The translations under genes were made by a program, and so were the position numbers. The notes under the pieces are model-generated. The model was given only the letters and a program-made list of their open reading frames with translations. It searched no databases and was not told where the DNA came from. This document shows, one piece after another, positions 48,335 through 53,740 of a stretch of 64,000 nucleotides of DNA. Source of the DNA: Thermoplasmata archaeon (lineage in GTDB: Archaea; Thermoplasmatota; Thermoplasmata; Lutacidiplasmatales; UBA184); the NCBI GenBank assembly GCA_050749465.1, contig JBOGRO010000050.1, positions 364 to 64,363 of the forward strand, in the 5' to 3' direction. Positions within the stretch are counted from its first letter, which is position 1. Every line of letters starts with the position of its first letter.

Positions 48335-49588
48335 CTACGCCCCTTCGGGCTCGCTGGAGAGCATGCGCATCAGCCGCGCGAGCGCCTGGTCGGCGCCGCG
48401 CAACTCGCGGTTGCGCAGGAGGTCGGTGACGTCGCGGATCTTGGCCGCCGCCTCGCGGGCGACCTCGCTGTCGGGGGGGAGCGTACGAACCCGGCCCGCG
48501 AGGCGGCGGGCCTTCTTCAGCAGGCGGTCGAGCGTCTCCGCTTCCGTCTCGGCCGGAGACGCGCCGGCGGGGGCGGCGGCTATCGATGCCGCGCCGACCG
48601 CGACCTCGCTGAGCTCCCGGGACTGCTCGAGCCGCTCGATCTCACGGCGCAGCTCGCGCACGCTCGCGACGGCGTCGGTGAGTCGACCCTTGCGCAGGTG
48701 GCGCGTCGCCTCCCCGTGGAGCCGCCGGGCAGAGGCGCTCGGCGGGTGCTCTTCCGAGTAGCGACCGAGGACCTTCTCGTGGCGTCCGAGCTCCTCCTCG
48801 AGCGACGTCGGGATCGCTTCGTGCAGCAACATCAGTGTCTGGGCCGCGGCCTGGGCGATCCCGTCGAGCCCGTCCTCGGTGATGTCGGGCTCGCGGAGCC
48901 GGTCGCGGATCTCCGAGACCTCGCCCGCGATCTCTCCGAGCGGGATCCCGAGGTCGGTCGCCTCCTTACGGAGAGTATCGATCTGCCGGAGCAGTCCCTG
49001 GAGGCCCCGCCAATCGGACTCGAACTGCGCGACGCGGCGCTCGGTCTCGACCAGCAGGCCCGAGGCCGTCTCGCGCTGACCGCCGGTCACGGCGTCCTCG
49101 AGACCCTTCAGGTCGTTGACGAGCGCGAAGCGGACCCCGGTCTCGCGCAGCGCCGCCTCCCTCGACTGCAGCGACTGGACGCGCTTTTGGAGCAGCTCGT
49201 CCGTCTGCCGGTCGAGACTGCGCTGCGCGCGGCGGAGGACGTCGAGCGCCTCGTTGACGTGGCCCTCGGCCTCGTTGAGCGCCGCCTGGCAGAGATCGCT
49301 CGTCACGTCCGGGGCGCCGCGGCCCAGTTCTCGAACATACTCCAGCTTCGTCCGGAGGTCCCGGCTGATCGTCGCGCACAGTTCCGCCTCGGCGGAGACC
49401 GGCCCGGGCGCGAGGGGAGCCGGTTTCTCGGACGGGAGCAGCGGAGTGTCGGCCTCCGGGGTGCTGGAACCGTCGGGTCCGAGCGAGCGAAGGCCTTCGA
49501 TCGCGAGGGCAGTCGGGAAGCCGCAGACCGAGCAGTGACCGACCGTGGACGGGATCGCTTGCTCGCAGATAGGACAGCTGGTGGCCAC
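48335..49588 (-). CDS. 417-aa N-terminal Zn-ribbon plus helical-repeat protein
   Basis: CPICEQAIPSTVGHCSVCG, followed by a Pro-rich linker and long helical segments. The stop lies 3 nt before the next gene. Confidence 0.65.
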   Translation of the reverse strand: MATSCPICEQAIPSTVGHCSVCGFPTALAIEGLRSLGPDGSSTPEADTPLLPSEKPAPLAPGPVSAEAELCATISRDLRTKLEYVRELGRGAPDVTSDLCQAALNEAEGHVNEALDVLRRAQRSLDRQTDELLQKRVQSLQSREAALRETGVRFALVNDLKGLEDAVTGGQRETASGLLVETERRVAQFESDWRGLQGLLRQIDTLRKEATDLGIPLGEIAGEVSEIRDRLREPDITEDGLDGIAQAAAQTLMLLHEAIPTSLEEELGRHEKVLGRYSEEHPPSASARRLHGEATRHLRKGRLTDAVASVRELRREIERLEQSRELSEVAVGAASIAAAPAGASPAETEAETLDRLLKKARRLAGRVRTLPPDSEVAREAAAKIRDVTDLLRNRELRGADQALARLMRMLSSEPEGA

Positions 49589-49678: not shown

Positions 49679-49891
49679 TTACCCGCCGGAGAACGTTGGA
49701 ACCACCGTGAGTCGGGTTGGTCGATCAATGGGAGTATCGAGTGGGATCGGTAGGTCGTCGACGAGCACCGCGCTCCCTTCGGGGGCGTGACCAGCCGACC
49801 GGAGCACCGCCCGGACCGTCGTCCCCGGCACGACGCGGAGGCGGCGCCGAACGACCGAACCACCGCGCGTCGTCTCGATGACGACCGCGAC
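49679..49891 (-). CDS. ThiS/MoaD/SAMP-like beta-grasp ubiquitin-like protein ending in Gly-Gly; start unresolved
   Basis: ..VVIETTRGGSVVRRRLRVVPGTTVRAVLRSAGHAPEGSAVLVDDLPIPLDTPIDRPTRLTVVPTFSGG*. The N-terminal 25 codons of the 100-aa track ORF are tRNA sequence. Confidence 0.6.
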   Translation of the reverse strand, partial: VAVVIETTRGGSVVRRRLRVVPGTTVRAVLRSAGHAPEGSAVLVDDLPIPLDTPIDRPTRLTVVPTFSGG

Positions 49892-49905
49892 CGGAGGAGA
49901 GGAGG

Positions 49906-50025
49906 CGCTGAGGGGGAGAGTGTCCGGGGCCCGGGAGGGTTTCCGGGCGCCTTTTGAACTCCCGCGATGCATACGCACCACCAGATCTCGAATCTGGCGC
50001 CTTGGCCGAGCTAGGCTACCTCAGC
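49906..50025 (-). tRNA. tRNA-Ser(CGA) with an approximately 33-nt intron in the T-loop
   Basis: Acceptor GCTGAGG/CCTCAGC plus discriminator G. D-arm GCCT..AGGC. Anticodon arm CCAGA-TTCGAGA-TCTGG, with the anticodon at 49988-49990. Long variable arm GGTGC-GTAT-GCATC. T-stem GGGAG/CTCCC, interrupted at about 49920-49952. Confidence 0.85.
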
Positions 50026-50051
50026 ACCTAGCGCGCGCAGGTGGGGGGCGC

Positions 50052-50059
50052 ATAAAAAA
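50052..50059 (-). promoter_or_regulatory. TATA box (TTTTTTAT) for tRNA-Ser; the same T-run is a likely terminator of pgi/pmi
   Basis: Ends 26 nt upstream of the mature tRNA 5' end and lies 17-24 nt downstream of the PGI/PMI stop at 50076. Confidence 0.6.
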
Positions 50060-50075
50060 GAGTATCGTCCTCGCG

Positions 50076-51080
50076 TCAACGCGCGCGCCCCGCGTCGAGT
50101 ACCGCCTTCCATCGTGTGATCGCGTCGATCGGGTACGGGTCCACCCCCCGGCGGTCGGCAAGGAAGAGGCTCACTTGGTCGCCGAGCGCGAAGCCCGCGG
50201 CGACCGTCTCGAGTCGGTCCTCCCCCGGGAGCGGCACCGGAATGACCTCCGCACCGCGCGCGGCGAGCAAGCGCTCCAGGTGGGCGAACGCGCGGCGGCT
50301 CGCGGCGGTCGCGCCTTCGGACTCGAGGAGGACGGCCGCAAATCGGCTCGCGTCCCGGCGCGAGGCCGCGTCCCAGCCGACGATCGCGTTGTGCAGGAGC
50401 TCGGGGATCTCGTCCGAGACCGCGAGCCGCTTTGCGTTCTCCTCGATCTGCGTCGCCCAGCGGCGGGCGAGCCCGGAGAACGGACTCTCCGCGTAGACGA
50501 ACGGAAAGCGCGAGCCGATCCGTCGCGCGACCGCCGACGCCGGACCGCTCGGTCGGGCGTAGCGCGGGATCCGCGACTCGAGCTGGGCCGCGATGCGGCC
50601 GATGCGCTCCTCGTTCGACTCGGGGAACCACGGGTCCAGCAGTCCGAGGAACGAACCCAGGATCTGACCGACCGCGGCTCGCGGCGGCAGCCCCGGCGGC
50701 AGCGTGACGAGCGGCACCCGGTCGCGTTCGGCCCGCTCCGCAAGCGAGCCTCCGGAACTGATCACGACGCGACCCGCCCCGGTCCGGCCCGCGGTGTCGT
50801 ACGCCCGCAGGGTCTCCCAGGTGTCGCCCGAGTAACTGACCAGGACGACGCGGCTGCGGCGCTCGACCGCGCGGGGGAGCTCAGAGGAGCGCACGGTCGC
50901 GATCGCGAGCGGGGTCTCGGACTCGACGACCCCCCGCGCGAGGTCCGGCGCGATCGCCGAACCGCCCATCCCGACGACGAAGACGGTCGTCGACCGGTCC
51001 GTCGCCGCCGGGGCGACTTCCAGTCCGGCGCGGAATCCGTCGCGCAGCTGACCGGGGAACTCCGCCGCGAGCGCACGCAT
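50076..51080 (-). CDS. bifunctional phosphoglucose/phosphomannose isomerase (SIS domain)
   Basis: ATG 51080. ..VFVVGMGGSAIAPD.., ..LVSYSGDTWET.., ..IPELLHNAIVGW... Confidence 0.75.
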   Translation of the reverse strand: MRALAAEFPGQLRDGFRAGLEVAPAATDRSTTVFVVGMGGSAIAPDLARGVVESETPLAIATVRSSELPRAVERRSRVVLVSYSGDTWETLRAYDTAGRTGAGRVVISSGGSLAERAERDRVPLVTLPPGLPPRAAVGQILGSFLGLLDPWFPESNEERIGRIAAQLESRIPRYARPSGPASAVARRIGSRFPFVYAESPFSGLARRWATQIEENAKRLAVSDEIPELLHNAIVGWDAASRRDASRFAAVLLESEGATAASRRAFAHLERLLAARGAEVIPVPLPGEDRLETVAAGFALGDQVSLFLADRRGVDPYPIDAITRWKAVLDAGRAR

Positions 51081-51193
51081 GCGATCGGAGCCCGACGACG
51101 CGGCCGACCTTGCGGGCACGGGCGGCCGGGCCCGCCGGCAAAGATAGCCCTTGCGGCGCCGCGACCGGCCACCGGCCGTGGTCCCGAAAGTAC

Positions 51194-53740
51194 TTGAAGC
51201 GGGGGGGCGCATCTTATCGACGCGGCGGCCCTCCTCGAGGGCGAATCGCCGCGGGAGGAACCACCGCGTCCGCACGAGGACCCCCGGCCCCGGAGGCCGA
51301 CATCCGCATCTCCACCGGGAACCCCGGGCTTGACACGATGCTGGAGGGCGGCGTGATCCCGCGCCGGCCGTACCTCATCGTTGGCCCCGCCGGGACCGGG
51401 AAGACCACGCTCGCGATGCAGTTCCTTCTGGAGGGAGTCCGCCGCGGCGAGCGATGCCTCCTCGTCACACTGGAGGAGCCGCCGAACGAGGCGCGGCTCA
51501 ACCACCTGGGGTTCGGGCCCGAGTTCGACCGGGTCGAGGTCTTCGACGCGATCCCGGACGTCATGCGCTACGAGCGGGTCCCGTTCAAGGACATCTCCGC
51601 GGTCCGCTCGGCGATGCCGTTCGGCCTGGTGCCGTTCGTCATCCGGCGGACCCCCGAGCTCACGGGCGTCGAGGTCACGATCACGGCGCTCGAGCAGATG
51701 CTCCGCAGCGAGGTCGCGCGGCGCGGCTACACCCGCGTCGTGATCGACTCGCTCACGGCGCTGCAGTACTTTTGCATGAAAGGGTTCAACGAGGTCGCCG
51801 GCGCGCAGACGTTCCTGCGCTTCCTGTCCGACCTCCAGGTCACGACCGTGCTCACGGTCGAGTCCCCGCTCGAGGACGTCGACTCGACCGAGCGGATGCT
51901 CGCGCGGGGGGAGATCCGGCTCTTCCGCTGGGAGTTCGAGGGGTCGACCGTCCGCGCGGTCGGGGTCGAGAAGTTCCGCGGGAGCGCCCACGACGTGCGC
52001 CTGCACCCGTATCGGATCGGACCGCACGGGATCGACATCAACCTCACGGCCACGATCTCCCGCGACACGCGCCAGATCATCCAGCCGGAGCCGATCGTTT
52101 CCGTCGTGGTCCCCTCGGTCGCACCGGTCGGTGCCGGCACGCCGCTCGACCCGTTAAAGGACGAGGTGGCGGACCTCGTGACGATCGGGGCCGATGTCGG
52201 ACCGATCCGCGCCGAGGTCGAGGCCGCGCTCGCCGCGCTCGCCGGCCCGAAGCCGGAGTCCGCTCCCGCGCATCTCGCGCGAGCGTCCGCGCTCGCGATG
52301 GACGTCGCCGGGGCGTTCCGGACGCTCGCCCCGCCGGACCCGGCGCACCGGACCGCCGCGGCCTCTGAGGCGCTGATGCGGGTCGTCGCCCGGGCCGAGA
52401 CCGCGCGCGCCGGGGTCGCGCCGACGACGCTGCCCCCCTCGCCCCAATTGGAGCAACAGCTCGAGCAGGTGCTCTCGGTTCTCGCGCGCGCCCCCTTACC
52501 GACCGCGCCGAGCCCCCCGACCCCGGCCGGCGCCGCGGCACCCCCCGCGCCCGCGGTCCGGATCGTCCCGGCATCGATGCCCGCTCCCGCCCCTCCGGCG
52601 CCCGAGCCTGCCCCGGTCGAGGAGCCGCTCGACACGGCGCCTGCCGAGGTCCCGGTCGTGGAACCAACGCCGCCCATCGCCGCGGCCCGGGTCGCACCCC
52701 CCCCGATCTCCCCTCCACCCCCTCTGAAGGTCGAGTTCGTCGCTCCGCGCGCTCTGCCCCCTCCCCCACCCCCACCCCCACCCTCGGTCACGGTCACCGT
52801 AACGGTCGCACCGACCCCCCCCGCTTCAGCGCCGACTCCCGGTCCTGCCGCAGAGGTCGTCGCGATCCTGGCGCCGCCACCGCCGGCCGCGCCCGTGGTC
52901 CCGGCCGAGCGTCCGTCGCCCGAGTTCCGGATGGACGCGGTGCCCCCACCGCCCCCTCCCCTTCCTCTCCCGCCTCCCCCGCCGCCGGTCTCGGCCGCGT
53001 CCGCTCCACGACGCGCGCCTCCGCCCGAACCGCCGGTGCGGCCGACCGGGTTCGCACCGGTGACCGCTGCCGGAGGACCGGCCCCTCCGGCTCGAGCGCC
53101 GCCCGCGCCCGTTGCGCAGCGGGCACCAGCCGTGAGCGTCACCGCAACGTCGCCTCCGGCTCGGGCGCCGCCCCCTCCTCCGCTTCCGGCTTTTGGCGCC
53201 ACTCCGGCGACCCCGCCGTCTCCCACCGCCGTCTCCGCTGCGCCGTCTACCCCTCCTCCGCCGGCGAGCGGACCACCGACGGTCGCGGTCCCTGCCCCTG
53301 CGACGCCCCCCCCTCCTCTCGCTGCGCCCACTCCCGTTTCGGTTCCCGCGTCGACCCCGTCGCCCGCTCCTACCTCCGAGATGGGGGTTCCTCCGTCTAC
53401 ATCGGCGAGGACGGACTCCACCGCTCCCCCAAAGCGAAAGGGAAAGCGCGCCCCCCGCCCCCCACGGAAGTCGGAACGGAGTTCCGAGACCGACGGCGCG
53501 GGAGGGGCCCCGGGGTCCGAAGCGTCTCCCGCGTTGCCCGCCGGTGCGGGTCCGGCAGAACACGAGGATGCGGCGTCGCGGCCCAAGGGTCGCCGACGTT
53601 CCGTGCGGAAGCGGAGGGCACCGACCGTCGTCTCGGCGACCGCGGGTATCGCACCGGCCGAGCCGGCCGCCGCGCCCGACGTAACGGCCCCCGAGCCGGT
53701 CCCGCCGCCGTCGGAGTCGCCGCCGAAGGAAGGTCCATGA
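51194..53740 (+). CDS. KaiC/RecA-like ATPase fused to an approximately 550-aa Pro/Ala-rich disordered tail
   Basis: STGNPGLDTMLEGG, Walker A GPAGTGKTT, Walker B VVIDSLTAL. The tail carries runs of P9 and P6-L-P-L-P6 and ends with a Lys/Arg-rich segment. TTG 51194 or TTG 51110 are the only possible starts. Confidence 0.75.
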   Translation: MKRGGASYRRGGPPRGRIAAGGTTASARGPPAPEADIRISTGNPGLDTMLEGGVIPRRPYLIVGPAGTGKTTLAMQFLLEGVRRGERCLLVTLEEPPNEARLNHLGFGPEFDRVEVFDAIPDVMRYERVPFKDISAVRSAMPFGLVPFVIRRTPELTGVEVTITALEQMLRSEVARRGYTRVVIDSLTALQYFCMKGFNEVAGAQTFLRFLSDLQVTTVLTVESPLEDVDSTERMLARGEIRLFRWEFEGSTVRAVGVEKFRGSAHDVRLHPYRIGPHGIDINLTATISRDTRQIIQPEPIVSVVVPSVAPVGAGTPLDPLKDEVADLVTIGADVGPIRAEVEAALAALAGPKPESAPAHLARASALAMDVAGAFRTLAPPDPAHRTAAASEALMRVVARAETARAGVAPTTLPPSPQLEQQLEQVLSVLARAPLPTAPSPPTPAGAAAPPAPAVRIVPASMPAPAPPAPEPAPVEEPLDTAPAEVPVVEPTPPIAAARVAPPPISPPPPLKVEFVAPRALPPPPPPPPPSVTVTVTVAPTPPASAPTPGPAAEVVAILAPPPPAAPVVPAERPSPEFRMDAVPPPPPPLPLPPPPPPVSAASAPRRAPPPEPPVRPTGFAPVTAAGGPAPPARAPPAPVAQRAPAVSVTATSPPARAPPPPPLPAFGATPATPPSPTAVSAAPSTPPPPASGPPTVAVPAPATPPPPLAAPTPVSVPASTPSPAPTSEMGVPPSTSARTDSTAPPKRKGKRAPRPPRKSERSSETDGAGGAPGSEASPALPAGAGPAEHEDAASRPKGRRRSVRKRRAPTVVSATAGIAPAEPAAAPDVTAPEPVPPPSESPPKEGP

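What the first reader, a model, noticed from the sequence alone, without database searches (positions are those of the whole stretch)
49906..50025. tRNA-Ser(CGA) interrupted by a non-canonical intron inside the T-loop
All arms of a class II tRNA-Ser are perfectly formed: a 7-bp acceptor, 4-bp D-stem, 5-bp anticodon stem and 5-bp variable arm. The two strands of the T-stem (GGGAG and CTCCC) are, however, separated by about 40 nt instead of a 7-nt loop. Removing about 33 nt (49920-49952) restores a TTCAAAT loop and an 87-nt mature tRNA. The insert itself contains a GCCCGG/CCGGGC hairpin and a CTCCCG decoy for the T-stem. Introns at position 59/60 are a minority class in archaea and are best known from Thermoproteales. 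Standard tRNA finders and ORF callers may miss or mis-call this gene, and the ORF track translates straight through it.
Basis: seen in the sequence. Interest (0 to 1): 0.6.

Follow-up and report, generated by a model that had tools for sequence, protein, structure and literature searches.

The report
Serine tRNA gene with T-loop intron
This is a real, single-copy serine tRNA gene of an uncultured GC-rich soil/cave archaeon (Thermoplasmata) interrupted in its T-loop by a 33-base protein-spliced intron. This is a known kind of intron, found here in a lineage, and at a frequency (13 tRNA genes in this genome), that the literature I could search does not describe.

Summary
On the minus strand, window 50025..49906 encodes a class II tRNA-Ser(CGA). 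Its T-stem strands (GGGAG/CUCCC) are 40 nt apart. Removing 49952..49920 (33 nt) gives an 87-nt tRNA with the T-loop UUCAAAU, which is exactly the loop of the intron-less orthologue in sister families.

The insert behaves as an archaeal bulge-helix-bulge (BHB) intron at position 59/60:
- **Conservation pattern.** In 56 distinct orthologues the exons are almost invariant. The insert varies freely but keeps its length, a hairpin with compensatory changes, and the residues that pair with T-loop nucleotides 54-56.
- **Geometry.** It is 3-4-3, the T-arm equivalent of the canonical 37/38 site. In this genome the 4-bp central helix has only two Watson-Crick pairs (A57·G and U54·C mismatches), so the motif is not strict.
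- **Genome context.** Twelve other tRNA genes in the genome carry an intron at the same site. The genome encodes one two-unit (alpha'2-type) EndA without a broad-specificity loop, and RtcB.
- **Need.** UCG is the most used serine codon, and this is the only tRNA-Ser(CGA) gene.

ARAGORN mis-calls the gene and Rfam scores it below threshold. No spliced RNA was found in public metatranscriptomes, which is uninformative.

Verdict: a new member of a known kind, in an unexpected clade (probably Ca. Lutacidiplasmatales).

The parts
49906..50025 (-). Whole tRNA-Ser(CGA) gene, 120 nt including the intron. No CCA is encoded (the following bases are CCU).
   Evidence: After in-silico removal of the intron, ARAGORN calls a full-length tRNA-Ser(cga).
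49953..50025 (-). 5' exon, 73 nt: acceptor 5' strand, D arm, anticodon arm (CGA at 49990-49988), variable arm, T-stem 5' strand GGGAG (49963-49959) and T-loop nucleotides 54-59 UUCAAA (49958-49953).
   Evidence: Nearly invariant in 56 orthologues. All stems are 100% paired.
49920..49952 (-). 33-nt intron between tRNA positions 59 and 60: AGGCGCCCGGAAACCCUCCCGGGCCCCGGACAC.
   Evidence: The sequence varies among orthologues but the length is conserved (33 nt in 56 variants, 30-32 nt in 5). The intron is absent from the tRNA-Ser(CGA) genes of sister families, whose loop is UUCAAAU.
49926..49951 (-). Inner helix h' and its loop: i2-i10 (49951-49943) pair with i19-i27 (49934-49926), with one C·C mismatch and an 8-nt loop.
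   Evidence: MFE folds. Nine of 10 pairs show changes on both sides. There are 77 compensatory cells against 37.9±4.5 in shuffles, with 0 of 500 shuffles as high. The i2-i27 pair is G-C in 56 of 56.
49955..49958 (-). 5' strand of the central BHB helix H: T-loop U54 U55 C56 A57.
   Evidence: Pairs with i31..i28.
49922..49925 (-). 3' strand of central helix H: i28-i31 = GGAC. Pairing is G28·A57 (mismatch), G29-C56, A30-U55, C31·U54 (mismatch in this genome).
   Evidence: In 56 orthologues i29 is G in 100%, i30 is A or G in 100%, i31 is A or G in 91% and i28 is G in 93%.
49952..49954 (-). 5' bulge (A58, A59 | i1 A). Predicted 5' cleavage lies between 49953 and 49952.
   Evidence: Inferred from BHB geometry (cleavage after the second bulge nucleotide). 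The same layout occurs in all 13 T-loop introns of the genome.
49919..49921 (-). 3' bulge (i32 A, i33 C | U60). Predicted 3' cleavage lies between 49920 and 49919.
   Evidence: i32 is A in 49 of 56 orthologues. Layout as. The cleavage position is inferred.
49906..49919 (-). 3' exon, 14 nt: U60, T-stem 3' strand CUCCC, acceptor 3' strand CCUCAGC and discriminator G.
   Evidence: Invariant in 56 orthologues.
50052..50059 (-). A/T-rich box TTTTTTAT, 27-34 nt upstream of the mature 5' end. It is a candidate archaeal TATA box.
   Evidence: An A/T-rich box sits at the same distance in most of the 20 aligned genus members, although the flanks are otherwise unalignable and about 70% G+C. Promoter function is inferred.

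Best explanation
This is the functional, single-copy gene for tRNA-Ser(CGA) of an uncultured Thermoplasmata archaeon. It is interrupted by a 33-nt archaeal (protein-spliced) intron between T-loop positions 59 and 60.

Proposed pathway:
1. The gene is transcribed from its own TATA-type promoter.
2. In the precursor the T-stem is the outer helix.
3. T-loop nucleotides U54-A57 pair with the four intron bases that lie two nucleotides upstream of the 3' junction, forming the central helix.
4. A58-A59-i1 and i32-i33-U60 form two 3-nt bulges on opposite strands.
5. The rest of the intron forms a hairpin (inner helix).

This is the T-arm copy of the canonical 37/38 bulge-helix-bulge layout. The genome's two-unit (alpha'2-type) EndA dimer would cut after the second nucleotide of each bulge, and RtcB would join the 73-nt and 14-nt exons. 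That yields an 87-nt tRNA with the T-loop UUCAAAU, which is then CCA-tailed and modified.

Shown here: the anatomy, its conservation and covariation, the intron-less orthologue, and the presence of the enzymes. Inferred: the actual cleavage and ligation, and the exact cut sites.
For: - **Cloverleaf.** The cloverleaf with an extended T arm is the unconstrained MFE fold.
- **Conservation.** The 120-nt locus is kept in 21 of 24 other genomes of the genus, and 56 distinct variants were collected.
- **Exons versus insert.** The exons are almost invariant, whereas the insert varies but keeps its length.
- **Covariation.** The intron hairpin has 9 of 10 pairs with compensatory changes, with 0 of 500 shuffles as high.
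- **Central-helix partners.** The partner of C56 is G in 56 of 56, the partner of U55 is A or G in 56 of 56, and the partner of U54 is A or G in 51 of 56.
- **Intron-less orthologues.** Those in sister families read GGGAG-UUCAAAU-CUCCC, which is the predicted spliced product.
- **In-silico splicing.** The spliced sequence is called as a full-length tRNA-Ser(cga).
- **Other genes.** Twelve more tRNA genes in the same genome have an insert at the same 59/60 site with the same 3-4-3 layout. The base opposite position 57 tracks it: C with G57 in 6 of 6; G (6) or U (1) with A57.
- **Enzymes.** One EndA gene with a structural unit plus a catalytic unit carrying Y/H/K, and RtcB.
- **Need.** UCG makes up about 47% of serine codons, and no second tRNA-Ser(CGA) gene exists.
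- **Location.** The gene is intergenic, between a PGI-like gene and a small SAMP2/ThiS-like ORF.
Against: - No spliced RNA was seen. Contigs from eight soil, peat and root (meta)transcriptome runs covering this locus or its relatives are all unspliced and carry genomic flanks. Such libraries rarely capture mature tRNA, so this is uninformative rather than negative.
- In this genome the central helix has only two Watson-Crick pairs (A57·G28 and U54·C31 are mismatches). It is the weakest of the 13 introns.
- Published work describes alpha'2 enzymes as needing a strict 3-4-3 motif (PMC3239211, PMC6379350).
- tRNAscan-SE and SPLITS could not be run.
Confidence: 0.9

Rival explanations
1. The gene is spliced by EndA at a neighbouring junction rather than at 59/60. 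A cut at 57/58 or 58/59 would give the loop UUCAACU, and a cut at 60/61 would give UUCAAAA. This would follow if the central helix forms one register away (CGGA opposite A57-U54).
For: The repeated A's, the conserved C-G-G-R, and the A57·G mismatch in the preferred register allow an alternative pairing. The alternative removals are also 33 nt.
Against: - Only 59/60 gives both cuts after the second nucleotide of a 3-nt bulge with the T stem as the outer helix.
- It gives the loop UUCAAAU, identical to the intron-less orthologues and to this genome's own intron-less tRNA-Ser(UGA).
- With 58/59, position 59 of the mature tRNA would vary among close relatives (i33 is C, G, A or U), while every other exon base is fixed.
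- The invariant G (i29) sits opposite C56 only in the 59/60 register.
Confidence: 0.05
2. The locus is a tRNA pseudogene, disabled by an insertion in the T-loop.
For: Standard finders fail on it. No spliced RNA was seen. The central helix in this genome is weak.
Against: - All mature-tRNA stems are perfect and invariant across 56 variants, while the insert and flanks diverge. That pattern indicates purifying selection on the exons.
- It is the only gene for the decoder of the commonest serine codon.
- Twelve other, different tRNAs share the same architecture.
- An A/T-rich promoter box is conserved.
Confidence: 0.02
3. The insert is not removed. The mature tRNA would carry an enlarged T arm with an extra hairpin.
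For: No RNA evidence is available either way.
Against: - The insert sequence is free to vary except where it builds the BHB.
- A 33-nt hairpin within the T-loop would abolish the conserved T-loop/D-loop elbow contacts needed by the ribosome and elongation factor (established tRNA structural knowledge).
- Sister lineages use the intron-less form.
- EndA and RtcB are present.
Confidence: 0.03

Closest known systems
Non-canonical 59/60 BHB introns of Ca. Micrarchaeum acidiphilum ARMAN-2: pre-tRNA-Cys(GCA), 13 nt, hBH type; pre-tRNA-Pro(GGG) with 53/54 plus 59/60 introns (Fujishima et al. 2011, PMC3239211)
   Same: The insertion site (between T-loop positions 59 and 60), protein-enzyme splicing logic, short size, and a high share of interrupted tRNA genes in a non-crenarchaeal lineage.
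   Different: ARMAN-2 uses a three-unit epsilon2 EndA with a specific loop that confers broad specificity, and its Cys intron is a relaxed hBH. Here the enzyme is a two-unit alpha'2 type with no such loop. The motif keeps both bulges with 3-4-3 spacing.
Non-canonical and multiple tRNA introns of Thermoproteales and other Crenarchaeota/Thaumarchaeota (Marck & Grosjean 2003; Sugahara et al. 2008, as cited in PMC3239211 and PMC8450103)
   Same: BHB-type introns outside the anticodon loop, including the T-loop. Many tRNA genes per genome are affected, and standard finders miss them.
   Different: [quoted passage not shown] Here the introns are concentrated at one site (59/60, 13 genes) with near-canonical geometry, in a euryarchaeal-type class.
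Canonical archaeal 37/38 intron with a strict hBHBh' motif (for example Haloferax tRNA-Trp, or the Archaeoglobus fulgidus EndA-BHB complex 2GJW)
   Same: The architecture is identical if the T arm is substituted for the anticodon arm. A 5-bp stem is the outer helix, loop nucleotides 1-4 form the 4-bp central helix with the intron, and the cut falls after loop nucleotide 6. Bulges are 3 nt and an intron hairpin forms the inner helix.
   Different: The site is in the T-loop. The central helix uses the universally conserved U54-U55-C56-R57 and contains a conserved A57·G mismatch in A57-type tRNAs. In this gene there is a second mismatch (U54·C).

Membership tests
Archaeal protein-spliced (BHB) tRNA intron | Removal of the insert restores a canonical tRNA with all conserved positions. 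| tested here: met
   The 87-nt product has a 7/4/5/5/5-bp cloverleaf and a UUCAAAU T-loop. ARAGORN calls it tRNA-Ser(cga) over its full length. The loop is identical to that of the intron-less orthologues.
Archaeal protein-spliced (BHB) tRNA intron | Two 3-nt bulges on opposite strands, separated by a 4-position central helix and flanked by outer and inner helices, with both junctions after the second bulge nucleotide. | tested here: met
   The MFE fold shows a 7x7 internal loop between the T stem and the intron hairpin, i.e. 4+3 on each side. The layout is tabulated for all 13 introns.
Strict hBHBh' motif (the substrate class reported for alpha4 and alpha'2 EndA) | The central helix consists of four standard base pairs. 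| tested here: not met
   Here only C56-G and U55-A pair; A57·G and U54·C do not. Three of four positions pair in 51 of the 56 orthologues. Six of the other 12 T-loop introns in this genome have four of four.
Archaeal protein-spliced (BHB) tRNA intron | The genome encodes the splicing endonuclease EndA and the RtcB ligase. | tested here: met
   PF01974 matches twice in one ORF, with full-length similarity to the fused M. kandleri EndA and the A. fulgidus alpha'2 EndA. RtcB matches at 568 bits.
Archaeal protein-spliced (BHB) tRNA intron | Exons are conserved; the intron is free to vary except for the structure (compensatory changes). | tested here: met
   nine hairpin pairs with double changes, and a covariation score of 0.117 against 0.070±0.005 in shuffles.
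Archaeal protein-spliced (BHB) tRNA intron | A spliced RNA is observed. | tested here: inconclusive
   Contigs from eight public (meta)transcriptome runs were laid on the locus. Only unspliced contigs with flanks were found, and there were no joints. These libraries are not tRNA-seq.
Broad-specificity EndA ((alpha-beta)2 with the CSL loop, or epsilon2 with the ASL loop) | An inserted specific loop with a conserved Lys in the catalytic unit, a separate beta subunit, or a three-unit architecture. | tested here: not met
   There is a single two-unit ORF. The catalytic unit aligns with M. jannaschii alpha residues 4-171 without an insertion. This test rests on sequence alignment only.
tRNA pseudogene | Disrupted stems or conserved bases, relaxed constraint, and a redundant functional copy elsewhere. 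| tested here: not met
   All stems are intact and invariant. There is no other tRNA-Ser(CGA) gene. UCG is the top serine codon.

The most novel reading that the evidence does not exclude
A whole clade of soil Thermoplasmata (Ca. Lutacidiplasmatales and relatives) has filled the 59/60 T-loop site of about a quarter to a third of its tRNA genes with introns, while keeping an ordinary loop-less alpha'2 endonuclease.

The central helix must be built on the invariant U54-U55-C56-R57. In A57 tRNAs it carries a conserved A·G mismatch, and in this gene a second mismatch as well. If these introns are spliced, one of two things would follow. Either the alpha'2 enzyme tolerates imperfect BHB motifs outside the anticodon loop far better than the current 'narrow specificity' picture allows, or it gets help from the folded tRNA body.

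The site also splits the T-arm/3' segment that integrases use as attachment sites. The introns might therefore persist because they protect tRNA genes from integration.
Probability: 0.3. Interest if true: 0.6.

Novelty: new member of a known kind. Interest (0 to 1): 0.45.

Why it matters
- **Annotation.** The decoder of the commonest serine codon is invisible to or mis-called by general tRNA finders. At least 12 further tRNAs in this genome are affected in the same way. MAG quality metrics and 'missing tRNA' statements for this clade will therefore be wrong unless T-loop introns are modelled.
- **Biology.** The published correlation holds that many non-canonical introns go with a broad-specificity EndA carrying a special loop. 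This is a euryarchaeal-type lineage with a loop-less alpha'2 enzyme and many 59/60 introns, some with imperfect central helices. That makes the substrate range of alpha'2 enzymes directly testable with a defined natural substrate set.

Tried and rejected
- **ARAGORN, default and with -i.** It mis-calls the gene. The -i mode produces dozens of spurious huge 'introns' in this 70% G+C genome, so those calls were not used.
- **Rfam at gathering threshold.** It finds nothing in the whole window. In E-value mode it gives a sub-threshold tRNA hit that forces a false acceptor stem.
- **Public RNA runs.** Only unspliced contigs with flanks were found, most of them from relatives. They probably derive from DNA carry-over or precursors, so they cannot settle whether splicing occurs.
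- **First home-made T-arm scanner.** It was far too permissive (767 hits). It was replaced by scanning, in-silico splicing and ARAGORN confirmation. One remaining hit, 'tRNA-Ala(agc)' at C17:50839-50999, looks spurious and was dropped.
- **Alternative register.** I first thought that G57-type and A57-type introns differed by a 1-nt shift of the CGGR motif. The table shows the same register throughout, with the base opposite position 57 changing instead.
- **Intron-hosted function.** A C/D-box sRNA hosted in the intron, as in haloarchaeal tRNA-Trp, was rejected. The intron is only 33 nt and has no conserved sequence beyond the BHB.
- **Group I or group II intron.** Rejected on size.
- **Common origin of the 13 introns.** Whether they are copies of one another was not tested. 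They are too short and too constrained for a safe homology call.

Full report
**Observation.** I read window 49700-50250 on both strands. The gene lies on the minus strand, from 50025 down to 49906. Its elements are:
- Acceptor stem GCUGAGG/CCUCAGC (7 bp), discriminator G, no encoded CCA.
- D stem GCCU/AGGC.
- Anticodon stem CCAGA/UCUGG with loop UUCGAGA (anticodon CGA, 49990-49988).
- A 5-bp variable arm.
- T stem GGGAG (49963-49959) / CUCCC (49918-49914).
- 40 nt between the two T-stem strands instead of 7.

The unconstrained MFE fold of 131 nt is the cloverleaf plus an elongated T arm (-66.5 kcal/mol; z = -4.3).

ARAGORN reports a wrong 84-nt 'tRNA-Ser(cga)' at 49937-50020, with or without its intron option. 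Rfam finds nothing at gathering threshold. In E-value mode it gives a 21.8-bit hit that skips the real 3' half.

**Organism and setting.**
- The assembly is 1.78 Mb in 52 contigs, 70% G+C and about 96% complete.
- The best DNA holder is a cave metagenome.
- Records carrying the same gene are titled 'Thermoplasmata archaeon' MAGs from soil and peat. They include AcS5-107, AcS5-58, SubAcS10-22 and others.
- Those names are the Ca. Lutacidiplasmatales genomes of Sheridan et al. 2022 (PMC9287336; about 69% G+C, about 2 Mb). That paper does not mention tRNA introns.
- The tRNA is intergenic. It sits 50 nt downstream of a PGI-like gene on the same strand (50076-51275, PF10432). It lies upstream of a small ORF whose C-terminal part weakly resembles SAMP2/ThiS.
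- The long plus-strand ORF 49878-51197 that 'reads through' the tRNA has no Pfam match, and most of it runs antisense to the PGI-like gene.
- An A/T-rich box (TTTTTTAT, 50059-50052) sits 27-34 nt upstream of the mature 5' end. It recurs at that distance in most genus members, although the flanks are otherwise unalignable. This is the expected place for an archaeal TATA box (inference).

**Comparative evidence that the insert is an intron.**
- A search of 40 related genomes found the full 120-nt locus in 21 of 24 other genomes of the same genus, at 84-96% identity. A further genome has it cut by a contig end, and the misses are 62-75% complete assemblies. Other families match only positions 1-73.
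- In the 20-sequence alignment with flanks, the exons are essentially invariant. The insert and the flanks are highly variable.
- A pattern scan of the species-representative genome collection added many more. After de-duplication I had 61 distinct tRNA-Ser(CGA) variants, with inserts of 33 nt (56), 32 nt (2) or 30 nt (3).
- The 56 variants with a 33-nt insert align without gaps.
- On that alignment every mature-tRNA helix is 100% paired and almost never varies.
- The insert's hairpin has 9 of 10 pairs with changes on both sides (GC<->CG, AU and so on). There are 77 compensatory cells against 37.9±4.5 in column shuffles, with 0 of 500 shuffles as high. Paired cells drop from 91% to 34-50% when the partners are slid by one to three columns.
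- tRNA-Ser(CGA) genes of sister families in the same order (G026, G028, G025, G027, G029, G030) have no insert. Their T arm reads GGGAG-UUCAAAU-CUCCC (or CUCCU), exactly the product predicted here. Three of these that I scanned score 52-58 bits with Rfam tRNA.
- More distant class members again carry a 59/60 insert in Ser(CGA): G038 with 33 nt and G036 with about 60 nt. The intron therefore comes and goes within the class.

**The splicing motif.** For a canonical 37/38 intron, the anticodon stem is the outer helix. Loop nucleotides 32-35 form the 4-bp central helix with intron bases that lie two nucleotides before the 3' junction. Each cut falls after the second nucleotide of a 3-nt bulge (established BHB geometry; summarised in PMC3239211 and PMC6379350). 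The T arm has the same 5-bp stem and 7-nt loop, so 59/60 is the exact structural counterpart of 37/38.

The fold found here has a 7x7 internal loop between the T stem and the intron hairpin. It decomposes as follows:
- Central helix H: U54-A57 against i31-i28.
- 5' bulge: A58, A59 | i1.
- 3' bulge: i32, i33 | U60.
- Inner helix: starts at i2-i27.

Across the 56 variants:

| Position | Base(s) | Partner or role |
|---|---|---|
| i29 | G in 56/56 | opposite C56 |
| i30 | A (48) or G (8) | opposite U55 |
| i31 | A (26), G (25), C (5) | opposite U54 |
| i28 | G (52) or A (4) | opposite A57; never a standard pair |
| i2-i27 | G-C in 56/56 | first pair of the inner helix |
| i32 | A in 49/56 | first base of the 3' bulge, mirroring A58 in the 5' bulge |

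The geometry is therefore the canonical 3-4-3, but the central helix is not strict. Three of four positions pair in most orthologues. Only two of four pair in this genome, which is one of the five variants with C at i31.

**Genome-wide context.** I scanned the assembly for T arms with enlarged loops closed by a matching acceptor stem. I then removed the excess in silico and kept the candidates that ARAGORN accepted as full-length tRNAs. Thirteen tRNA genes carry an insert of 23-38 nt at 59/60:
- Ser(GCU), Ser(GGA), Ser(CGA)
- Asp(GUC)
- Arg(UCU), Arg(UCG)
- His(GUG)
- Ala(GGC)
- Glu(CUC)
- Gln(CUG)
- Gly(UCC)
- Asn(GUU)
- Lys(UUU), which also has a D-loop insert

Most of these are the sub-threshold or barely-passing Rfam tRNA hits. 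All 13 fit the same layout. The base opposite position 57 follows it: C with G57 (6 of 6); G (6) or U (1, in His) with A57. The central helix is fully paired in six introns, has one mismatch in six, and has two mismatches only in Ser(CGA).

The same site is occupied in tRNA-Ser genes of Methanomassiliicoccales MAGs (13-25 nt inserts) and of some Woesearchaeota MAGs.

**Enzymes.**
- One ORF on C20 contains two PF01974-type units.
- Its roughly 354-aa product aligns over its full length with the fused beta-alpha EndA of M. kandleri (5X89). It also aligns with the alpha'2 EndA of A. fulgidus (1R0V/2GJW). The Tyr/His/Lys triad lies in the C-terminal unit.
- The catalytic unit aligns with M. jannaschii alpha residues 4-171 without insertion. 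I therefore see no crenarchaeal-type or ARMAN-type specific loop (sequence-level inference only).
- RtcB is present at 568 bits.

**Is the gene needed?** There is no second tRNA-Ser(CGA) gene in the assembly. In 414 high-confidence long ORFs, UCG accounts for 47% of serine codons. Together with the invariant exons, this argues strongly against a pseudogene.

**RNA evidence.** (Meta)transcriptome runs from soil, peat and roots share words with the gene. Laying the contigs of eight of them gave only unspliced contigs that continue into genomic flanks, most of them from related species. There were no joints. Ordinary RNA-seq assemblies rarely contain mature tRNAs, so this neither supports nor refutes splicing.

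**Comparison with what is known.**
- 59/60 introns are documented in ARMAN-2, where splicing by its epsilon2 enzyme was shown in vitro (PMC3239211). They are also documented in Crenarchaeota.
- Reviews tie abundant non-canonical introns to EndA types with a specific loop, and describe alpha'2 enzymes, including that of Thermoplasma acidophilum, as narrow (PMC6379350, PMC5829648).
- The tRNAscan-SE 2.0 paper names Crenarchaeota and Thaumarchaeota as the main holders (PMC8450103).
- I found no paper describing T-loop introns in Thermoplasmata. This is a limited full-text library, so absence there is not proof.
- Earlier notes of this scan report the same phenomenon in many Thermoplasmata genomes. 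I treated them as leads. My own data reproduce the points I rely on.

**Verdict.** It is a new member of a known kind (a BHB intron at 59/60). Its interest lies mainly in the lineage and in the enzyme context. Confidence that this is a functional intron-containing tRNA gene spliced at or next to 59/60 is about 0.9. The exact junction and the competence of the alpha'2 enzyme on this imperfect motif remain to be shown experimentally.

Noticed in passing
G000 contigs (not in the window): C1:6134-6248, C12:24243-24360, C14:118-222, C17:54380-54486, C17:112087-112193, C17:61126-61227, C20:53877-53980, C24:2811-2917, C40:66094-66194, C40:99796-99938, C41:2787-2890, C42:16291-16388: Twelve further tRNA genes of the same genome carry a 23-38-nt insert at T-loop position 59/60 with the same 3-4-3 BHB layout. 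tRNA-Lys(UUU) also has a D-loop insert of about 37 nt. Most are the sub-threshold or barely-passing Rfam tRNA hits.
   Followed up: partly
G000:C14:64910-65015 and G000:C40:32705-32807: Two more tRNA genes appear to have inserts in the D-arm region: a tRNA-Arg(GCG)-like gene and a CAU-anticodon tRNA. ARAGORN mis-types them as 'Pyl' and 'Arg(cct)'.
   Followed up: no
window 48373-48457 (+): ARAGORN's 85-nt 'tRNA-Ala(cgc)' is probably a false positive. It has no Rfam support and no GTTCRA T-loop, and it lies in a region of long overlapping ORFs. A normal tRNA-Ala(CGC) exists at G000:C24:7095-7166.
   Followed up: partly
window 48438-48517: A long G+C-rich perfect palindrome (GGCCGCCGCCUCGCGGGC...GCCCGCGAGGCGGCGGGCC) produces spurious microRNA-family hits on both strands. 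Its role is unknown.
   Followed up: no
window 49679-49981 (-): The C-terminal half of this 100-aa ORF weakly matches SAMP2/ThiS (ubiquitin-like small archaeal modifier). The real gene is probably shorter, and the ORF's 5' extension overlaps the tRNA only by chance.
   Followed up: partly
L088, L096, L104, L114, L156 (Methanomassiliicoccales / Methanobacteriota MAGs): tRNA-Ser(UGA) genes with both a canonical anticodon-loop intron and a 24-25-nt T-loop (59/60) intron. L074, L100 and L142 carry 13-14-nt T-loop introns in tRNA-Ser(CGA).
   Followed up: no
L047, L068, L149 (Woesearchaeota MAGs): tRNA-Ser-like genes with the same T-arm and acceptor sequence and 21-36-nt inserts at 59/60. Their 5' parts also look heavily interrupted.
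   Followed up: no
L138: One pattern hit has a 17-nt gap and no tRNA-like 5' part, in G+C-rich coding-like sequence. It is a chance match to the search pattern, which shows that the pattern alone is not fully specific.
   Followed up: no
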